The position numbers and the translations under genes were made by a program. A stretch of 20,000 nucleotides of DNA from an uncultured virus (IMG/VR IMGVR_UViG_3300042350_005045) (Duplodnaviria > Heunggongvirae > Uroviricota > Caudoviricetes): IMG/VR virus record IMGVR_UViG_3300042350_005045; one strand, 5' to 3'. Positions 15,886 to 20,000 of the stretch are shown here, in pieces (positions within the stretch are counted from its first letter, which is position 1; every line of letters begins with the position of its first letter). The notes beneath the pieces were generated by a model that was given only the letters and a program-made list of their open reading frames with translations, had not been told where the DNA came from and made no database searches.

Positions 15886-18174
15886 ATGGCAGACGCTAAA
15901 GCCAGGCTCCAGGAAATCATCAATGCTTATCTTGATAAAGATAGTGACATTGTTGTAGACACTGGTGTTGTCGCGTCTCACATTGCACAGATGAAACTCT
16001 TTGGTATCCGCCAGGGAGTTGAATTTTTTCCATCACAAGATAACTTTGGCAACCAACGCAAAGACTTTATCGATCGTGTAGCCAAGTACAACAAACTTGA
16101 TACACGCCTGGATTCAATCTGGGAGTACTTCCTGTGTGATGGCAAAGGCCTTTTCTACATTCGCCCTACAAAACAAAATTATCGCCTCTATTATTTCCGC
16201 GAGCATGAGTACCGTGCGTACTACAACGTTGACGGTGAACTTGACGAAGTTGTAATCATCTATAGCTATAAGGTCCGTAAGGCCAATGGCTTCGGTGATC
16301 AGCTTGCAACTACATCGCTAACAGGTGGTCTAAGCACTGGTAGTCCTGGTGCAAAGCGTTATATCAGGCTTTCGATCAAACCTAGAGAGATTGAAGAGAC
16401 GCACTCGGATTCCGAGATGTCGTTTGAGATGCCGACCTACGCATTAACCGGTCATACCAAGACGTTCAAGAATAGTCTTGGCTTTATTCCATGCGTTGAA
16501 ATTATCAATAATCCCCAAGGTTTTTCTTCGGAGGGCACTGGTGAATTTGACGCACTAGCCAATCACATTTGTACGCATGACGAAATGATGCGTACGATGC
16601 GTAAAAATATTACCTTCTTTGGTAACCCAACGCTTCTGTCGTCTCGCCCCAAGACTGACCTTATGGAGGCAGGGGGAGACGCTATTGTCCAGCGTCCTTC
16701 TATTGCTGCAAACTCTGGCTTTACGAGTCCATCACCGATGAGTCGGTCGATGTTTAAAGCTGATCCCGTCAGCCGTGGTGTTGATGGTCAGATCCGTGTT
16801 CCACGCGTCATTGCAAACCTGGAACCAAACGACCGTGTTGGTTATATCGTTCCAGATGCAATCACTGGAGATCAAAACGCATTTGCTCGTCAGTATCGAG
16901 AAGAGATTCGTACTGCCCTTGGTGGCGTAGACGAACTATCAATTTCTGCTGGCGTGACAGCAACTGAGTACAAATCATTGTTTGGACGTGTTGCTGCAAC
17001 ATCCAAGAAAAAAGCAAATGCCATTTATACACATGGCTTATGTCGTTGTTTTGAATTGATTATCTACCAAGAGGAACAATTATTCAAGGCGACACTTGCA
17101 TCAGCGGCAGGGCTCGAGAAGCCCGTAGATCTAGCTCCAGATGCTTCACCGGAAGATGAAGCTGGTTATGAAGCAGCAGAAAAGCAATACAACGAACAAC
17201 TCAAGAGCCTTATGATGGCTTGCGTGGAAGCACAACAGATCCCACCTAGTGTTATTGGCTTAATTCCAGATGGTGACGTCACTATCTTATGGCGTTGGCT
17301 GGGACCTGTATATGAGGATTCCACACAGGACATCCTTAACAACTCCATCGTGGTTCGCAACCTTCAGGAGTTAGGTGTTGATAGCATTGAAGCACTGAAA
17401 TACCTCTTCCCGTCTAAGACGGATGAGGAAAGGGCCGAGATGTTATCTGGGTTCCCATTCAGGATGGTGAACGAATTACAGGGTGCATACTCTCAATTCG
17501 CTCGCTTGGTGGGGGGCATGATGCAGACTCCTCACCCGCAAGCACCGGATCTTCCGATGGCTGCGGATCCAAGATTGGATTTAACTCCATATCTGTATCG
17601 AACCTTAGAAGCTCTACAAAAGGAGATGAGTTATGCAGGACGCTACCGTCCAATCGATCCCACAGACGAGCCAAGTCCCGGCAGCGGTGGCTCCAAGCAG
17701 CTACGTGGCTCCAGCCCCGGTCAATTACCAGGTGGCACAGAGCCCGGCTCCAGTGGCGTATCAAGTGGGTACCAGTTACCCCCAAGCGGTGCCTCAGGCG
17801 GCCCCCAATTACCAATCAGCCCCTACGCAGTACGCCCCCCAATACCAGTCGGAAGCACCGAACAGCAACCCCTGGGAGTCGGCGTTCAACAAGGTGGTGA
17901 ATCTGCTGAGCGCACCAGTTCAATCCCCGTTCCAGGGTCAACCGTCTCAGACGACTCAATACGCTCCAGCCAATTACGGCCAGCAGTACAGCAACCCAGC
18001 TACGCAACAATTGGGTCAGCAGACCTGGTCACCCAACCAGGCTTACTTGCCCAGCTCTTCCCAAATCTCCTCGGCAGTTTACTCAACCCTGGACGGGCTG
18101 AACCCAACGTCCGAGGTGCAGACCGCGATCGCGGATTACCTGCAACTAAACAACGAAAGTCGTCACGTCGTTGA
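15886..18174 (+). CDS. Probable portal protein with a long C-terminal extension overlapping the next gene
   Basis: ~580-aa globular-looking core between TerL and the scaffold/capsid genes; assignment rests on synteny and size. Confidence 0.7.
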   Translation: MADAKARLQEIINAYLDKDSDIVVDTGVVASHIAQMKLFGIRQGVEFFPSQDNFGNQRKDFIDRVAKYNKLDTRLDSIWEYFLCDGKGLFYIRPTKQNYRLYYFREHEYRAYYNVDGELDEVVIIYSYKVRKANGFGDQLATTSLTGGLSTGSPGAKRYIRLSIKPREIEETHSDSEMSFEMPTYALTGHTKTFKNSLGFIPCVEIINNPQGFSSEGTGEFDALANHICTHDEMMRTMRKNITFFGNPTLLSSRPKTDLMEAGGDAIVQRPSIAANSGFTSPSPMSRSMFKADPVSRGVDGQIRVPRVIANLEPNDRVGYIVPDAITGDQNAFARQYREEIRTALGGVDELSISAGVTATEYKSLFGRVAATSKKKANAIYTHGLCRCFELIIYQEEQLFKATLASAAGLEKPVDLAPDASPEDEAGYEAAEKQYNEQLKSLMMACVEAQQIPPSVIGLIPDGDVTILWRWLGPVYEDSTQDILNNSIVVRNLQELGVDSIEALKYLFPSKTDEERAEMLSGFPFRMVNELQGAYSQFARLVGGMMQTPHPQAPDLPMAADPRLDLTPYLYRTLEALQKEMSYAGRYRPIDPTDEPSPGSGGSKQLRGSSPGQLPGGTEPGSSGVSSGYQLPPSGASGGPQLPISPYAVRPPIPVGSTEQQPLGVGVQQGGESAERTSSIPVPGSTVSDDSIRSSQLRPAVQQPSYATIGSADLVTQPGLLAQLFPNLLGSLLNPGRAEPNVRGADRDRGLPATKQRKSSRR

Positions 18175-18634
18175 GGCATACGGCTGGAACGCACCTGCCG
18201 TTCTTAACAACTACGCCCTTCAACTGGAAGGGATGCTGGATAGTGCTGTTGCCTGGGGAACCGAGGCCCAAAATGTCCTGCAGCGTTACGCCAACTTCTC
18301 TGTCGCTGAGCACCAAGAGAATCTGGCTTACAACGAAATCTTGACCAATCCTGATGTACTCAGCGATTACACGCTGAAGTTCTTTGGTCCTGAAGGTCCG
18401 TACCCTGTGTATGAGGATGAGTCCCAACTGGAGACCCGTGGTTATCCCACCACATCTGCTTACCAAGCCCTGGGTCAATTCCCTGCACCTCCTGCAGCCT
18501 CCGCTCCCCAACAGCCTGAAAACTTCTGGGGTTCCTTTAAGCAGCAAATGGATGTAGATCCCGCACAAGCCTGGCGCCTTCTGAACCAAGCTCAGCCTCA
18601 AGTTGTTGCCAACAAACTGTTTGTAATGGAGTGA
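17633..18634 (+). CDS. Probable capsid scaffolding/assembly protein
   Basis: AAGGAG SD at 17620-17625; Pro/Gln/Ala-rich disordered N-half and helical C-half; position between portal and capsid gene. Confidence 0.7.
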   Translation: MQDATVQSIPQTSQVPAAVAPSSYVAPAPVNYQVAQSPAPVAYQVGTSYPQAVPQAAPNYQSAPTQYAPQYQSEAPNSNPWESAFNKVVNLLSAPVQSPFQGQPSQTTQYAPANYGQQYSNPATQQLGQQTWSPNQAYLPSSSQISSAVYSTLDGLNPTSEVQTAIADYLQLNNESRHVVEAYGWNAPAVLNNYALQLEGMLDSAVAWGTEAQNVLQRYANFSVAEHQENLAYNEILTNPDVLSDYTLKFFGPEGPYPVYEDESQLETRGYPTTSAYQALGQFPAPPAASAPQQPENFWGSFKQQMDVDPAQAWRLLNQAQPQVVANKLFVME

Positions 18635-18638
18635 GGCG

Positions 18639-19190
18639 ATGCGTAATCGCTTAGCTTATGGCGTACCTATTGCCGCTGGCTTAGCCACGGGTGGGTACGC
18701 CCTTTCTCAAGGTGAAGATCCAGGCTCTGCTGCTCTTGCTGCGGCTGCCGGTGGACTTGGTGCTTATGGTGGCTTAAGGCTGGCGGGACGTTACGCGCCA
18801 GAGCTTGCTGCTCGTGCAGGTGCTTTACTCAAAGGTGAAAAAGCAAGCGGCTTGACTAAGGAACAAATTCTTGCCGCCCCAATTGCCCCTGGAACAATCG
18901 GAAAAGGCAAAGTTGCACAAGGTCCCGTCAACCCTTCTCTTAATGCACCACCAGAAAAGGGCTTAGGTCCTTCCACACGTTCATACGGAAAAGTTGCTGC
19001 TGCTGGTCTTGTTCCAGCCGCTGCACTTACCGCTGGTCTCGGCGGTGTGGCACTTGGCGCTATTCCTGGTGCTATGGGTGTTCCAGGTTTTGGTCAAGGC
19101 GGTGCAATTGATCCAGAATCCCCTGGTTCTAGCAACACTGCAAGTGCCAAATATGGCGTAACACCTTACGCTAGTACGCAGTACATGTGA
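18639..19190 (+). CDS. Gly/Ala-rich hypothetical protein with hydrophobic segments
   Basis: ORF track; GAGG immediately upstream. Confidence 0.75.
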   Translation: MRNRLAYGVPIAAGLATGGYALSQGEDPGSAALAAAAGGLGAYGGLRLAGRYAPELAARAGALLKGEKASGLTKEQILAAPIAPGTIGKGKVAQGPVNPSLNAPPEKGLGPSTRSYGKVAAAGLVPAAALTAGLGGVALGAIPGAMGVPGFGQGGAIDPESPGSSNTASAKYGVTPYASTQYM

Positions 19191-19210
19191 CATCTAAGTT
19201 CACTACCTGC

Positions 19211-19248
19211 TAAAATTTGTGTTAGATAAGACGTAAATGTCTTTATCT
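19211..19248 (+). promoter_or_regulatory. -10-like TAAAAT followed by a leader hairpin upstream of the probable capsid gene
   Basis: TAAAAT 19211-19216; AGATAAGAC GTAAAT GTCTTTATCT 19224-19248. Confidence 0.5.
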
Positions 19249-19288
19249 TTCACCCGATAAAAACATCGACACTGGAGGATAAACCAAG

Positions 19289-19300
19289 GTGTTTATTGAT
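19289..19300 (+). CDS. Exon 1 (M-F-I-D) of probable major capsid protein gene
   Basis: GGAGG SD at 19274-19278; GTG TTT ATT GAT, then in-frame TAG two codons later inside the intron; position after the scaffold gene. Confidence 0.7.
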
Positions 19301-19302
19301 AG

Positions 19303-19857
19303 CTAGTTCAGATCCTGGTAGGTATAGCCCTTCAAGATTTGGTAAATAGCTCCGTGGTTACAGTTAAACTTTTCAGCAATCTTTCGATAAGAAAGTCCCG
19401 CTTCTTTTAAAGCTTTAATCTGAGCCACATCCTCCGAAGAAAATTTTCTCAAAGATTTCTTCGGTGCTCCTTTACTGGCAAAGCCATTGTTTTTATAACA
19501 ACCGCTCTTCCAGGCTCTTGTTAAGTTCTCTTGTTTGGTAACGATCTCTAGATTGTCAAGTCGATTATTCCTCTTGTCGTTATCTTTGTGATCAACTTGT
19601 AAGGAAAAGTTACTGGTTCCATGTGAACGCAGGTCTAATCCTAAGAAAGCAACCGCCATCAAGACATGAAGATGAAAACGTTTTCTCTTCCCATCTACAA
19701 GAACTGAAATACGGTCGTAAACACTGGTTGAACGAATGGGGATCTCTTGAAAATATTCTTGATTATCGGGATCAAGTTGTTTTTCAAAAGCTTTTCCCTC
19801 TTCCGTTAAGTAAAGGTTACCAAATCCAGGAACAAGTTTTGGATCCATGTTGTTCAT
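19303..19857 (-). CDS. HNH homing endonuclease (NUMOD4-like N-terminus, HNH_3 core, C-terminal HTH), intron-encoded, antisense
   Basis: LHVLMAVAFLG...VDHKDNDKRNNRLDNLEIVTKQEN; C-terminal LSYRKIAEKFNCNHGAIYQILKG; ATG 19857 preferred over 19881 because of the promoter position. Confidence 0.9.
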   Translation of the reverse strand: MNNMDPKLVPGFGNLYLTEEGKAFEKQLDPDNQEYFQEIPIRSTSVYDRISVLVDGKRKRFHLHVLMAVAFLGLDLRSHGTSNFSLQVDHKDNDKRNNRLDNLEIVTKQENLTRAWKSGCYKNNGFASKGAPKKSLRKFSSEDVAQIKALKEAGLSYRKIAEKFNCNHGAIYQILKGYTYQDLN

Positions 19858-19871
19858 AAACAGCTTTCCAA

Positions 19872-19900
19872 AGCATAGCATGCCTCAACTGAACGCTCAA
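19872..19900 (-). promoter_or_regulatory. Sigma70-type promoter for the HNH gene
   Basis: Minus strand TTGAGC (19900-19895), 17-nt spacer, extended -10 TGcTATGCT (TATGCT 19877-19872). Confidence 0.65.
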
Positions 19901-20000
19901 CGTTGTCACCCCACCGAGCAATCGATGGGTGCAAACCGGATGAATTCAGGGAAGCCCTAACGTAAAGACGAGGGTAATCCTGAGCCAAGCCAATCAAGTC

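What the first reader, a model, noticed from the sequence alone, without database searches (positions are those of the whole stretch)
19301..19908. Homing endonuclease sits antisense inside the P1 loop with its own promoter embedded in ribozyme sequence
Seen: about 600 nt separate the 5' splice site from its guide sequence and are filled by a minus-strand HNH gene. The ends can clamp by AGCTAGTTCAG (19301-19311) pairing with CTGAACGCT (19889-19897). The HNH stop lies in the 5' clamp strand, and the -35 (TTGAGC) of a 17-bp-spaced extended -10 promoter overlaps the 3' clamp strand. Established: phage intron endonucleases are usually sense-oriented in peripheral loops. Inference: the antisense layout decouples endonuclease expression from late transcription, and its mRNA could act as antisense RNA against the splice site and capsid start.
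Basis: partly seen in the sequence, partly recalled or inferred. Interest (0 to 1): 0.7.

Follow-up and report, generated by a model that had tools for sequence, protein, structure and literature searches.

The report
Antisense endonuclease gene inside capsid intron
A mobile self-splicing intron at the very start of a freshwater cyanophage's capsid gene carries its homing-endonuclease gene backwards inside the intron's first stem-loop, a rare layout that has been seen before.

Summary
Comparison with intron-less and endonuclease-less alleles in related viral contigs places the 5' splice site after U19300. The intron starts at 19301 and is cut by the window end. The guide sequence CGUUGUCA lies at 19901-19908, 601 nt downstream. 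A 6-bp helix (19306-11 x 19889-94) closes the P1 loop and has one compensatory variant. Inside the loop lies a minus-strand gene for a 181-aa I-HmuI-like HNH endonuclease (19848 to 19303). Its last two codons lie in that helix and its stop codon in P1.

Full-length copies pass Rfam's group I threshold (90-97 bits), and 19 of 63 core pairs covary. The HNH frame is intact in 67 of 67 complete copies (dN/dS 0.07-0.15). The intron is 98-100% identical between phages whose neighbouring gene is only about 50% identical, so it is actively mobile.

The proposed promoter is weak by consensus (8/12). However, TAnnnT is kept in 36 of 36 unique variants, and 29 of them also have the upstream TGn. Strand-specific expression and any antisense regulation remain untested.

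The host lineage is S-EIV1-like cyanophage. Antisense endonuclease genes are already described in the mycobacteriophage LittleE capsid intron and in Didymium rDNA introns, so this is a new variant of a known kind.

The parts
19187..19216 (+). Promoter-like site upstream of the capsid gene (GTGACA, 18 nt, TGcTAAAAT; 10 of 12)
   Evidence: It lies in the flank that is 100% identical among seven compared intron-bearing phages.
19224..19248 (+). Hairpin in the capsid 5' leader (AGATAAGAC / GTCTTTATCT)
   Evidence: Read from the sequence. The stem differs on both arms between alleles L004, L005 and L010 (by eye). Not tested formally.
19274..19300 (+). GGAGGA ribosome-binding site (19274-79) and exon 1 of the major capsid gene (GTG 19289 to U19300, four codons, MFID)
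   Evidence: The intron-less ORF L004:4110-5114 matches PHROG 1357 major head protein (7e-11) and is 87.3% identical to Synechococcus phage S-EIVl.
19301..20000 (+). Group I intron, 5' 700 nt. It is cut by the window and contig end. Full copies are 823-825 nt, so it would end near 20125.
19297..19303 (+). P1 5' strand, UGAU|AGC, with the 5' splice site between 19300 and 19301
   Evidence: Boundary from intron-less alleles. Pairs with GUUGUCA at 19902-19908, with U19300 opposite G19905.
19306..19311 (+). P1-extension helix, 5' strand GUUCAG. On the minus strand it encodes the last two HNH codons, Leu-Asn.
   Evidence: There is one compensatory variant, GCUCAG/CUGAGC.
19303..19848 (-). HNH homing-endonuclease gene, 181 aa, counted from the start codon kept in all copies (ATG, or GTG in three). 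An upstream ATG at 19857 is ATA, ATC or AAG in a number of variants. The ATG at 19881 lies upstream of the putative -10 and its codon is not kept in several variants (GTG in L015).
19850..19873 (+). Conserved box over the HNH start and leader (TGTTCATAAACAGCTTTCCAAAG) that resembles the intron-less homing site
   Evidence: Local alignment score 24; 11 of 500 shuffles reach it.
19872..19880 (-). Putative extended -10, TGcTATGCT, for the HNH gene
   Evidence: conservation; weak as a single site
19889..19894 (+). P1-extension helix, 3' strand CUGAAC. A circle junction seen in RNA contigs joins the intron's last G to C19894.
19895..19900 (-). -35-like TTGAGC, in the variable linker between the P1 extension and the guide sequence
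   Evidence: The linker has 7 different forms among 60 unique variants.
19901..19908 (+). Internal guide sequence CGUUGUCA. GUCA pairs with the exon 1 end UGAU, and CGUU pairs with the exon 2 start AACG (P10).
   Evidence: Read. It is invariant in 60 of 60 unique variants, but GTTGTCA was a search criterion.
19910..19929 (+). P2 hairpin with a GCAA loop
   Evidence: helix 1: 5 of 8 pairs change on both sides
19936..20000 (+). P3 5' strand (19936-41), P4-P5 (19946-83) and the start of P6 (19984 onward)

Best explanation
The region is the 5' part of a mobile group I intron. The intron has an extra hairpin between P7 and P3', as in subgroup IA2. It splits the major capsid gene of an S-EIV1-like freshwater cyanophage after its fourth codon.

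Shown:
- The intron boundaries are set by natural intron-less alleles.
- The ribozyme core is under structural selection.
- The 5' splice site and the guide sequence are 601 nt apart.
- The P1 loop between them is closed by a 6-bp helix.
- The loop holds a 181-aa I-HmuI-like HNH/helix-turn-helix endonuclease gene on the opposite strand. The gene is under strong purifying selection. Its last two codons lie in the closing helix and its stop codon in P1.
- The element occurs in three further natural states: no intron, intron with a small or minimal loop, and intron with an internally deleted endonuclease gene.
- The intron plus about 100-200 bp of flank is near-identical between otherwise divergent phages.

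Inferred:
- The enzyme nicks or cuts intron-less capsid alleles near GAT|AAC during co-infection, and repair copies the intron in with its flanks.
- Because the gene is antisense to the capsid transcript, it is transcribed from its own extended -10 promoter (TGnTAnnnT, 19880->19872) inside the P1 loop, starting near 19865.
- This gives expression independent of the capsid message and keeps ribosomes out of the P1 loop of the capsid pre-mRNA.
For: - Boundaries: intron-less and intron-bearing alleles. Of 80 related loci, 51 are intron-less, 18 have intron plus HNH, 9 have the intron without HNH, 1 is cut too early to tell and 1 lacks the region.
- Ribozyme: RF00028 scores 90.3 and 97.0 bits in full copies. 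In the core, 98.6% of cells are paired and 19 of 63 pairs have compensatory changes. None of 500 shuffles reached this, and slid controls gave 1-3 pairs.
- P1 and P10: the contiguous guide CGUUGUCA is complementary to the ligated exons UGAU-AACG, with U.G at the splice site.
- P1 extension: 59 of 60 unique variants have GTTCAG/CTGAAC and 1 has the compensatory GCTCAG/CTGAGC.
- Endonuclease gene: Pfam HNH_3 3.4e-10. I-HmuI (1u3e) is found by sequence at 7.6e-5. By fold it is the only significant match (Foldseek E=1.9e-7, TM 0.50/0.52; model pLDDT 78). The ORF is intact at 181 aa in 67 of 67 complete copies, giving 46 unique proteins. dN/dS is 0.07-0.15 in 21 of 21 pairs.
- Mobility: in seven compared loci (L065, L069, L027, L014, L075, L072, L052) the 100 nt before the intron is 100% identical to L005. 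In six of them (all but L052, 90.3%) the first 810 nt from 19191 are 98-99% identical to the window. The upstream gene falls to 26-63% identity in parts of the flank, and its protein is only 48-58% identical in four of them (L065, L027, L075, L072).
- Endonuclease-gene decay: L165 and L185 keep both ends of the gene but lack its body.
- Promoter: TAnnnT in 36 of 36 unique upstream regions (15 different hexamers), 30 of 36 at the same distance from a conserved box, 29 of 36 with TGn (alignment).
- RNA libraries, as contigs: in run X3 one contig joins the intron's last G (L005 1800) to L005 1569, which is window 19894 (depth 2.9, 65 letters on the shorter side). This is what a truncated circular intron RNA would give. 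In run X6 the core is at depth 59.6 against 4.2 over the HNH region.
- Host lineage: the capsid protein is 87.3% identical to Synechococcus phage S-EIVl.
Against: - The window holds only the 5' 700 nt of the intron. Alone it scores 34.6 bits, below Rfam's cut-off of 50.
- P1 and the guide sequence are invariant partly because they were search criteria, so they carry no covariation.
- The minimum-energy fold of 19289-19912 does not reproduce P1.
- The promoter is 8 of 12 by consensus and was not called by the scan. The motif is not enriched in the window (30 found, 37.6 expected).
- There is no Shine-Dalgarno-like sequence before the conserved ATG.
- RNA contigs cannot show strand, starts or ends. 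Contigs in X1 and X2 run unspliced from exon 1 through the HNH region and may be DNA or pre-mRNA.
- The exact 825-nt skip in X3 (depth 7.6, 29 letters on the shorter side) has an exon 2 that differs from L005 at several places. It may come from an intron-less phage.
- The circle junction rests on one low-depth contig.
- No relative of this HNH protein was found in 50,697 isolate phage records at E<=1e-8.
- Endonuclease activity and target are untested.
Confidence: 0.75

Rival explanations
1. The HNH gene is transcribed by read-through from a distant minus-strand promoter, or is barely expressed, and has no promoter of its own in the P1 loop. The conserved TAnnnT and TGGAAA block is kept for another reason, such as the RNA structure of the P1 loop or a protein-binding site.
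For: - The consensus match is weak and was not called by the scan.
- The motif is not enriched in the window.
- The conserved block also resembles the homing site.
- T4 segD is an example of an antisense endonuclease gene for which no promoter was found (PMC2988022, passage read).
Against: - Every ORF of 90 aa or more that lies clear of a larger + strand frame downstream of the intron is on the + strand in L004. The long minus-strand frames there overlap + strand genes. The window shows the same pattern, so no obvious upstream minus-strand transcription unit exists.
- T1, A2 and T6 are fixed while positions 3-5 vary (15 hexamers). This is the pattern expected of a -10 element.
Confidence: 0.2
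2. One reading: the HNH transcript works as a regulatory antisense RNA that blocks the 5' splice site, start codon and ribosome-binding site of the capsid pre-mRNA.
For: - The stop codon is only 2 nt inside the intron and 12 nt from the capsid start codon.
- No terminator-like site follows it, so overlap with the splice site and start region is likely if the transcript exists.
- An antisense RNA linking an intron-containing gene and an endonuclease gene is reported for cyanophage S-PM2 (Millard et al. 2010; seen only as a title in the reference list of PMC3428280).
Against: - There are no stranded data.
- The capsid message is expected to be in vast excess late in infection, so titration would more plausibly silence the HNH mRNA than the capsid mRNA.
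- Endonuclease-less introns persist (9 of 60 unique variants), so any such regulation is dispensable.
Confidence: 0.15
3. The HNH gene is a free-standing endonuclease gene beside the intron, and the intron starts downstream of it near 19880.
For: The Rfam match in the window starts only at 19876. Free-standing endonuclease genes next to introns are known in cyanophages (Zeng et al. 2009, seen only as a title in the reference list of PMC3428280).
Against: - Intron-less alleles lack everything from 19301 on.
- Exon 2 follows the intron's terminal G directly.
- No + strand reading frame links 19301-19880 to the capsid protein.
- Endonuclease-less introns keep 19301-19320 joined to 19885 onward.
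Confidence: 0.02

Closest known systems
Capsid-gene intron of mycobacteriophage LittleE with endonuclease gene gp14 on the bottom strand (Pope et al. 2013, PMC3706429; passages read)
   Same: It is a phage major-capsid gene split by a probable group I intron (U before the intron, G at its end). The endonuclease gene is transcribed in the opposite direction, relatives without the intron exist, and splicing was shown by RT-PCR.
   Different: - The LittleE enzyme is LAGLIDADG-like, not I-HmuI-like HNH.
- The intron type was left open, and neither the helix that holds the gene nor a promoter was described in the passages read.
- The host is an actinobacterium and the phage is temperate.
- Here the insertion is after codon 4, the gene lies in P1, and many natural variants allow covariation tests.
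Didymium iridis intron Dir.S956-2 with antisense I-DirII (PMC3679873 and PMC3073962; passages read)
   Same: It is a group I intron whose homing-endonuclease gene lies antisense to the ribozyme and is expressed from its own promoter. Endonuclease genes in P1, P2, P6, P8 or P9 are reported for nuclear introns.
   Different: [quoted passage not shown] Here the setting is a bacterial virus and a protein-coding host gene.
I-HmuI and its relatives I-BasI, I-TwoI and I-PfoP3I, nicking HNH endonucleases of phage group I introns (I-HmuI structure 1u3e; I-PfoP3I paper PMC3428280, passages read; I-BasI and I-TwoI recalled)
   Same: - The protein has an HNH motif followed by helical and helix-turn-helix DNA-binding parts.
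- It is about 180 aa and is encoded in a phage group I intron with a P7.1-type extra hairpin.
- I-PfoP3I comes from a freshwater cyanophage intron assigned to subgroup IA2.
   Different: - I-PfoP3I is read in the sense direction from P6a. The orientation and helix of the other three were not checked here.
- The known hosts are DNA polymerase or other early genes.
- Sequence identity to I-HmuI is only 22% over the structural alignment.
- Nicking versus double-strand cutting is not known here.
T4 td intron and I-TevI: own promoter plus an operator that mimics the homing site (PMC2988022; passages read)
   Same: An intron endonuclease gene has its own promoter. A sequence overlapping the promoter or leader resembles the enzyme's homing site. 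Here, TGTTCAT..AAC..CTTTCCAAAG is shared.
   Different: I-TevI is a GIY-YIG enzyme and autorepression by it was shown experimentally. Here the similarity is statistically modest (11 of 500 shuffles reach it) and no binding is shown.

Membership tests
Group I intron (Rfam RF00028) | Covariance-model score at or above the gathering score (50 bits) | tested here: met
   Full-length copies score 90.3 bits (L005, 99.5% identical to the window over 19191-20000) and 97.0 bits (L010). The window fragment alone scores 34.6 bits, truncated at model position 113 of 253.
Group I intron (Rfam RF00028) | 5' splice site after a U that forms a U.G pair with the internal guide sequence in P1, and a G as the last intron nucleotide | tested here: met
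   Boundaries from intron-less alleles are GAU|AGC...GGAG|AAC. U19300 lies opposite G19905 in UGAU|AGC x GUUGUCA. The terminal G is seen in 75 of 75 loci with a complete 3' end. It lies beyond the window.
Group I intron (Rfam RF00028) | Conserved P3-P9 core supported by covariation, including the P3/P7 pseudoknot | tested here: met
   43 unique cores. 98.6% of cells are paired. 19 of 63 pairs change on both sides. None of 500 shuffles reached this, and slid controls gave 1-3 pairs.
Group I intron (Rfam RF00028) | Self-splicing or splicing in vivo | tested here: inconclusive
   RNA-library contigs show an exact 825-nt skip and a junction from the last G back to 19894 in run X3. The skip may come from intron-less phages, and the circle junction rests on one contig at depth 2.9.
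Subgroup IA2 | P7.1/P7.2 insertion between P7 and P3' | tested here: inconclusive
   A 34-nt extended hairpin sits at that place, with 5 of 6 inner pairs covarying (helices 8-9). No formal subgroup classification was run.
I-HmuI-like HNH homing endonucleases | HNH (beta-beta-alpha-metal) nuclease motif | tested here: met
   Pfam HNH_3 E=3.4e-10, 39.8 bits against a cut-off of 24.8. The His of DH and the Asn residues (H87, N95, N99) are invariant in 29 of 29 aligned variants.
I-HmuI-like HNH homing endonucleases | Overall fold and domain order as in I-HmuI | tested here: met
   Foldseek gives 1u3e at E=1.9e-7, TM 0.50/0.52, and it is the only hit at E<=0.001. phmmer gives 1u3e at 7.6e-5 over residues 43-175. 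Model pLDDT is 78, with a low-confidence linker at 118-133.
I-HmuI-like HNH homing endonucleases | C-terminal helix-turn-helix DNA-binding domain | tested here: inconclusive
   HTH_38 scores 24.8 bits (cut-off 27) and HTH_23 scores 23.7 bits (cut-off 24.6), both just below the curated cut-offs. Three helices are modelled at 138-172.
I-HmuI-like HNH homing endonucleases | Site-specific nicking near the intron insertion site | not testable with these tools
   This needs purified protein and an intron-less substrate.
Mobile (homing) intron | Presence/absence polymorphism at one site, with co-conversion of flanks and spread across divergent genomes | tested here: met
   51 intron-less and 28 intron-bearing loci among 80. 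The intron and the 100 nt before it are 98-100% identical between phages whose upstream protein is 48-58% identical.
Introns with an antisense endonuclease gene (LittleE, Dir.S956-2) | Endonuclease ORF on the strand opposite to the ribozyme | tested here: met
   The ORF is on the minus strand in the window. The orientation is the same in all related copies.
Introns with an antisense endonuclease gene (LittleE, Dir.S956-2) | Own promoter and an antisense transcript | tested here: inconclusive
   TGnTAnnnT is conserved. No strand information is available from RNA contigs.

The most novel reading that the evidence does not exclude
The P1 loop carries a small self-contained regulatory unit made of three parts.
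- An extended -10 promoter fires against the late capsid promoter 650 nt away.
- Over the transcript start and leader sits a conserved box that copies the enzyme's own homing site (TGTTCAT..AAC..CTTTCCAAAG). The endonuclease would bind it and repress its own promoter, as I-TevI does.
- Convergent transcription and sense/antisense RNA pairing then switch the endonuclease off once capsid transcription starts. Before that, the HNH transcript covers the splice site, start codon and ribosome-binding site of any early capsid pre-mRNA.
Probability: 0.15. Interest if true: 0.65.

Novelty: new variant of a known kind. Interest (0 to 1): 0.45.

Why it matters
It shows that a phage group I ribozyme can still work with its 5' splice site and guide sequence held about 600 nt apart by a short clamp helix. 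It also shows that an endonuclease gene can be packed backwards into that loop while borrowing ribozyme nucleotides for its own stop codon.

The element is abundant in freshwater viral metagenomes and exists in every stage of the homing cycle: empty site, full element, decayed endonuclease gene and minimal intron. This gives a natural series for testing how orientation and loop size affect splicing and mobility.

It identifies the unannotated capsid gene and a mobile element in the poorly understood S-EIV1 cyanophage lineage. It also explains why assemblies of these phages tend to break at this spot.

Tried and rejected
- Rfam at gathering threshold on the window found nothing, because the intron is truncated. 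The permissive search and the full-length relatives settled the question. RF00028 in the own contig likewise gave no hit over the cut-off.
- The own contig ends at window 19977, so the 3' half of the intron could not be read from this genome.
- blastn against isolate phages matched only 50-70 nt of the conserved core of unrelated phage introns. tblastn of the HNH protein found no isolate relative at 1e-8.
- A minimum-energy fold of 19289-19912 (z = -4.46) instead pairs exon 1 with 19885-19897 and does not reproduce P1. It was not used as evidence.
- The 16-nt junction pattern also hit unrelated contigs by chance. They were filtered out by requiring the capsid start codon context.
- The RNA runs are held as contigs, so there is no strand, start or level information. 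Parts without cover are not interpreted.
- A 9-nt exact match of the exon junction, GATAACGAC, inside the HNH coding sequence is judged to be chance. About 0.26 such matches are expected by my own estimate from the sequence lengths.
- The search of earlier findings returned nothing for this genome.
- Literature searches for this intron in S-EIV1-like phages and for antisense or opposite-strand endonuclease genes in phage introns found only LittleE as a phage precedent. Only passages were read, and subscription journals are not covered.
Full report
**What is in the window.**
Positions 19876-20000 match the 5' half of Rfam's group I intron model. The score is 34.6 bits (E=5.7e-7, model positions 1-113 of 253), and the match is cut by the window end. 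Nothing reaches the gathering score in the window itself. The minus-strand ORF 19303-19881 carries Pfam HNH_3 (3.4e-10) and near-threshold helix-turn-helix matches. It also matches PHROG 59, HNH endonuclease (8.5e-28). The window's own contig ends at window position 19977, so the rest of the intron is not available from this genome.

**Natural variants fix the boundaries.**
The 183-aa protein encoded just upstream (18639-19190) was used to fetch 80 related viral loci. Comparing 19191-20000 with them gives three classes:
- 51 loci are intron-less. Their homology to the window stops at 19301.
- 18 loci have the whole 810 nt.
- 9 loci have the intron, but 19321-19884 is replaced by a short hairpin or loop.
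- One locus is cut too early to classify, and one lacks the region.

The intron-less allele reads GTG TTC ATT GAT AAC GAC TTT CC. It opens a 334-aa ORF that matches major head protein PHROG 1357 and is 87.3% identical to an unannotated frame of Synechococcus phage S-EIVl. Intron-bearing alleles read ...ATTGAT|AGCTAGTTCAG...CCAGGAG|AACGAC. Exon 1 is therefore 19289-19300, four codons. The 5' splice site follows U19300 and the intron ends in G. Intron length is 823-825 nt with the HNH gene, 277 nt with a small hairpin and 256 nt in the minimal form. Full-length copies pass Rfam's cut-off at 90.3 bits (L005) and 97.0 bits (L010).

**Structure.**
The guide sequence is CGUUGUCA at 19901-19908. GUCA pairs with the exon 1 end UGAU, with U19300 opposite G19905. 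GUU pairs with the first intron bases AGC. CGUU can pair with the exon 2 start AACG as P10, so the ligated exons UGAU-AACG lie on one contiguous guide.

A wider scan with the junction motif was filtered for the capsid start context. Together with the earlier loci and the window it gave 117 loci, though some contigs were fetched twice. Of these, 86 reach the guide sequence and give 60 unique P1-loop sequences: 51 with the HNH gene and 9 without.

The helix GUUCAG (19306-11) x CUGAAC (19889-94) is present in 59 of the 60. The other variant has GCUCAG x CUGAGC, a compensatory change. The linker between this helix and the guide has seven forms. P1 itself is invariant, but it was part of the search pattern and so carries no covariation evidence.

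For the core, 43 unique sequences give 98.6% paired cells and 19 of 63 pairs with changes on both sides. None of 500 shuffles reached this, and slid controls gave 1-3 such pairs. A covarying hairpin between P7 and P3' resembles the P7.1/P7.2 of subgroup IA2. No formal subgroup assignment was made.

**The endonuclease gene.**
The start codon kept in every copy is the ATG at 19848 (GTG in three variants). The ATG at 19857 is ATA, ATC or AAG in a number of variants. The ATG at 19881 lies upstream of the putative -10. The 181-aa frame is intact in 67 of 67 complete copies and gives 46 unique proteins. dN/dS is 0.07-0.15 in all 21 pairs of seven divergent copies, with dS up to 0.73.

The stop codon (CTA on the + strand, 19303-05) lies in the P1 5' strand. 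The final Leu-Asn codons are the complement of GUUCAG. These nucleotides are also present in introns that lack the gene, so the ORF is completed by ribozyme sequence.

I-HmuI (1u3e) is the only solved relative by sequence (7.6e-5). It is also the only significant structural match (E=1.9e-7, TM 0.50/0.52) to an AlphaFold model with pLDDT 78. No relative was found in 50,697 isolate phage records at 1e-8.

**Mobility.**
In seven loci (L065, L069, L027, L014, L075, L072, L052) the 100 nt before the intron are 100% identical to L005. In six of them (all but L052, at 90.3%) the 810 nt from 19191 are 98-99% identical to the window. The upstream gene drops to 26-63% nucleotide identity in parts of the flank. 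Its protein is only 48-58% identical in four of them (L065, L027, L075, L072). Exon 2 is 81-99% identical. This is the pattern of recent homing with co-conversion.

Two variants (L165, L185) keep both ends of the HNH gene but lack its body. Others keep only the TCCTGGTA remnant of its 3' end. All stages of the invasion-and-decay cycle therefore coexist.

**Promoter.**
They match the consensus at 8 of 12 positions and were not called by the scan. TGNTANNNT is not enriched in the window, with 30 sites against 37.6 expected.

The comparative evidence is better. In 36 of 36 unique upstream regions a TAnnnT hexamer lies just before a conserved TGGAAA box. There are 15 different hexamers. In 30 regions the distance to the box is the same, and in 29 the hexamer is preceded by TGn. 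Fixed T1, A2 and T6 with free middle positions fits a -10 element. From my own knowledge, TAnnnT is the usual form in cyanobacteria. The -35-like hexamer lies in the variable linker and is less convincing. No Shine-Dalgarno-like sequence precedes the conserved ATG.

**RNA.**
Four metatranscriptome runs from four studies hold parts of the element, but only as contigs, so there is no strand, start or level information.
- X1 and X2 have contigs running unspliced from exon 1 through the HNH region. These could be pre-mRNA or DNA.
- X3 has a contig that skips exactly the 825 nt of the intron. Its exon 2 differs from L005 at several places, so it may come from an intron-less phage.
- X3 also has a contig that joins the last intron G to C19894, 7 nt before the guide sequence (depth 2.9, 65 letters on the shorter side). 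A truncated circular intron would give this junction. Circularisation of excised group I introns is well known (PMC3679873, passages read; PMC13168695, listing only).
- In X6 the core (from the position matching window 19919 onward) is at depth 59.6, against 4.2 over the HNH region.

**Comparison with what is known.**
Phage intron endonuclease genes are, by recall, mostly read in the sense direction; of the papers read, only I-PfoP3I's placement was seen (from P6a). Antisense ones are described in two places:
- Mycobacteriophage LittleE has a capsid intron with gp14 on the bottom strand, and splicing was shown by RT-PCR (PMC3706429).
- Nuclear rDNA introns of Didymium carry I-DirII, which has its own promoter. 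Endonuclease genes in P1 are also reported for nuclear introns (PMC3679873, PMC3073962).

Searches for this element in S-EIV1-like phages found nothing relevant. I therefore rate it a new variant of a known kind. It is a real, well-supported and widespread element with an uncommon architecture, but the principle is not new.

**Open points.**
- Whether the minus-strand promoter fires.
- Where the HNH transcript ends.
- Whether the protein nicks or cuts, and where.
- Whether the 600-nt loop slows splicing.
- Whether the homing-site-like box at 19850-19873 is an operator, a relic of how the gene entered the intron, or chance.

Noticed in passing
window 19850-19873 (+), compared with L004:4111-4136: The conserved leader and start region of the HNH gene resembles the intron-less homing site. 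TGTTCAT, AAC and CTTTCCAAAG are shared with 3 nt less spacing. The local score is 24 against a shuffle mean of 17.5, and 11 of 500 shuffles reach it. The TTTCCAA core is kept in nearly all of the 36 unique variants (TTTCCCA in three). It could be an I-TevI-style operator, or a footprint of how the endonuclease gene invaded the intron (idea recalled from Loizos et al. 1994 and Bonocora & Shub 2009, not read here).
   Followed up: partly
L005:1569 and L005:1800 (window 19894); run X3: One RNA-library contig joins the intron's terminal G to C19894, inside CUGAA|C just 5' of the guide sequence. This implies a 232-nt truncated circle that excludes the antisense HNH region. The evidence is a single contig at depth 2.9.
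   Followed up: partly
window 19187-19216 and 19224-19248 (+): A good promoter-like site (GTGACA, 18 nt, TGcTAAAAT; 10 of 12) is followed by a hairpin that would lie at the very 5' end of the capsid mRNA. The stem sequence differs on both arms between alleles (L004, L005, L010).
   Followed up: partly
window 19301-19306: The palindrome CTAG supplies stops on both strands. On the + strand, TAG (19304-06) ends the exon 1 frame two codons into the intron, so unspliced RNA would give only MFIDS. On the minus strand, TAG (19305->19303) ends the HNH gene.
   Followed up: no
L165, L185, L121, L002, L003 (P1 loops): Endonuclease-less introns look like deletion derivatives. L165 and L185 keep both ends of the HNH gene. 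L121, L002 and L003 keep only its last codons and have a new small hairpin. L037 and L082 have minimal 10-nt loops.
   Followed up: partly
L201 (KJ410740.1, record positions 60784-62010): In the S-EIVl GenBank record the capsid frame (GTG start, 87.3% identical to L004's) is not annotated. A minus-strand hypothetical CDS and a short + strand CDS cover it instead. The isolate is intron-less at this site.
   Followed up: partly
window 19977-20000; ends of L002, L003, L015, L016, L024: The window's own contig and several related contigs end inside the intron. This suggests that assemblies break here because intron and endonuclease-gene states are mixed in the sampled populations.
   Followed up: no
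L012, L013, L031, L045, L049, L053, L061, L071 and others (first codons of exon 2): Some intron-less alleles read ACC, AAT or ACT instead of AAC at codon 5, or GAC instead of GAT at codon 4. All 75 intron-bearing loci with a complete 3' end have GAT|AACGA. These changes would weaken P10 or the U.G pair and might mark alleles that resist invasion.
   Followed up: no
window 19289-19299 with 19885-19897: The minimum-energy fold pairs the capsid start codon and exon 1 (GUGUUUAUUGA) with UCAACUGAACGC. This is an alternative to P1 and its extension, and it would hide the start codon in unspliced RNA. The A-to-C variant in L062-type exons does not keep the pairing.
   Followed up: no
window 15886-18174 and 17633-18634 (+): The 762-aa portal-like ORF (PHROG 20475, 1.4e-275) overlaps the next 333-aa Gln/Pro-rich ORF by about 540 nt in another frame. 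The tail of the first ORF is low-complexity.
   Followed up: no
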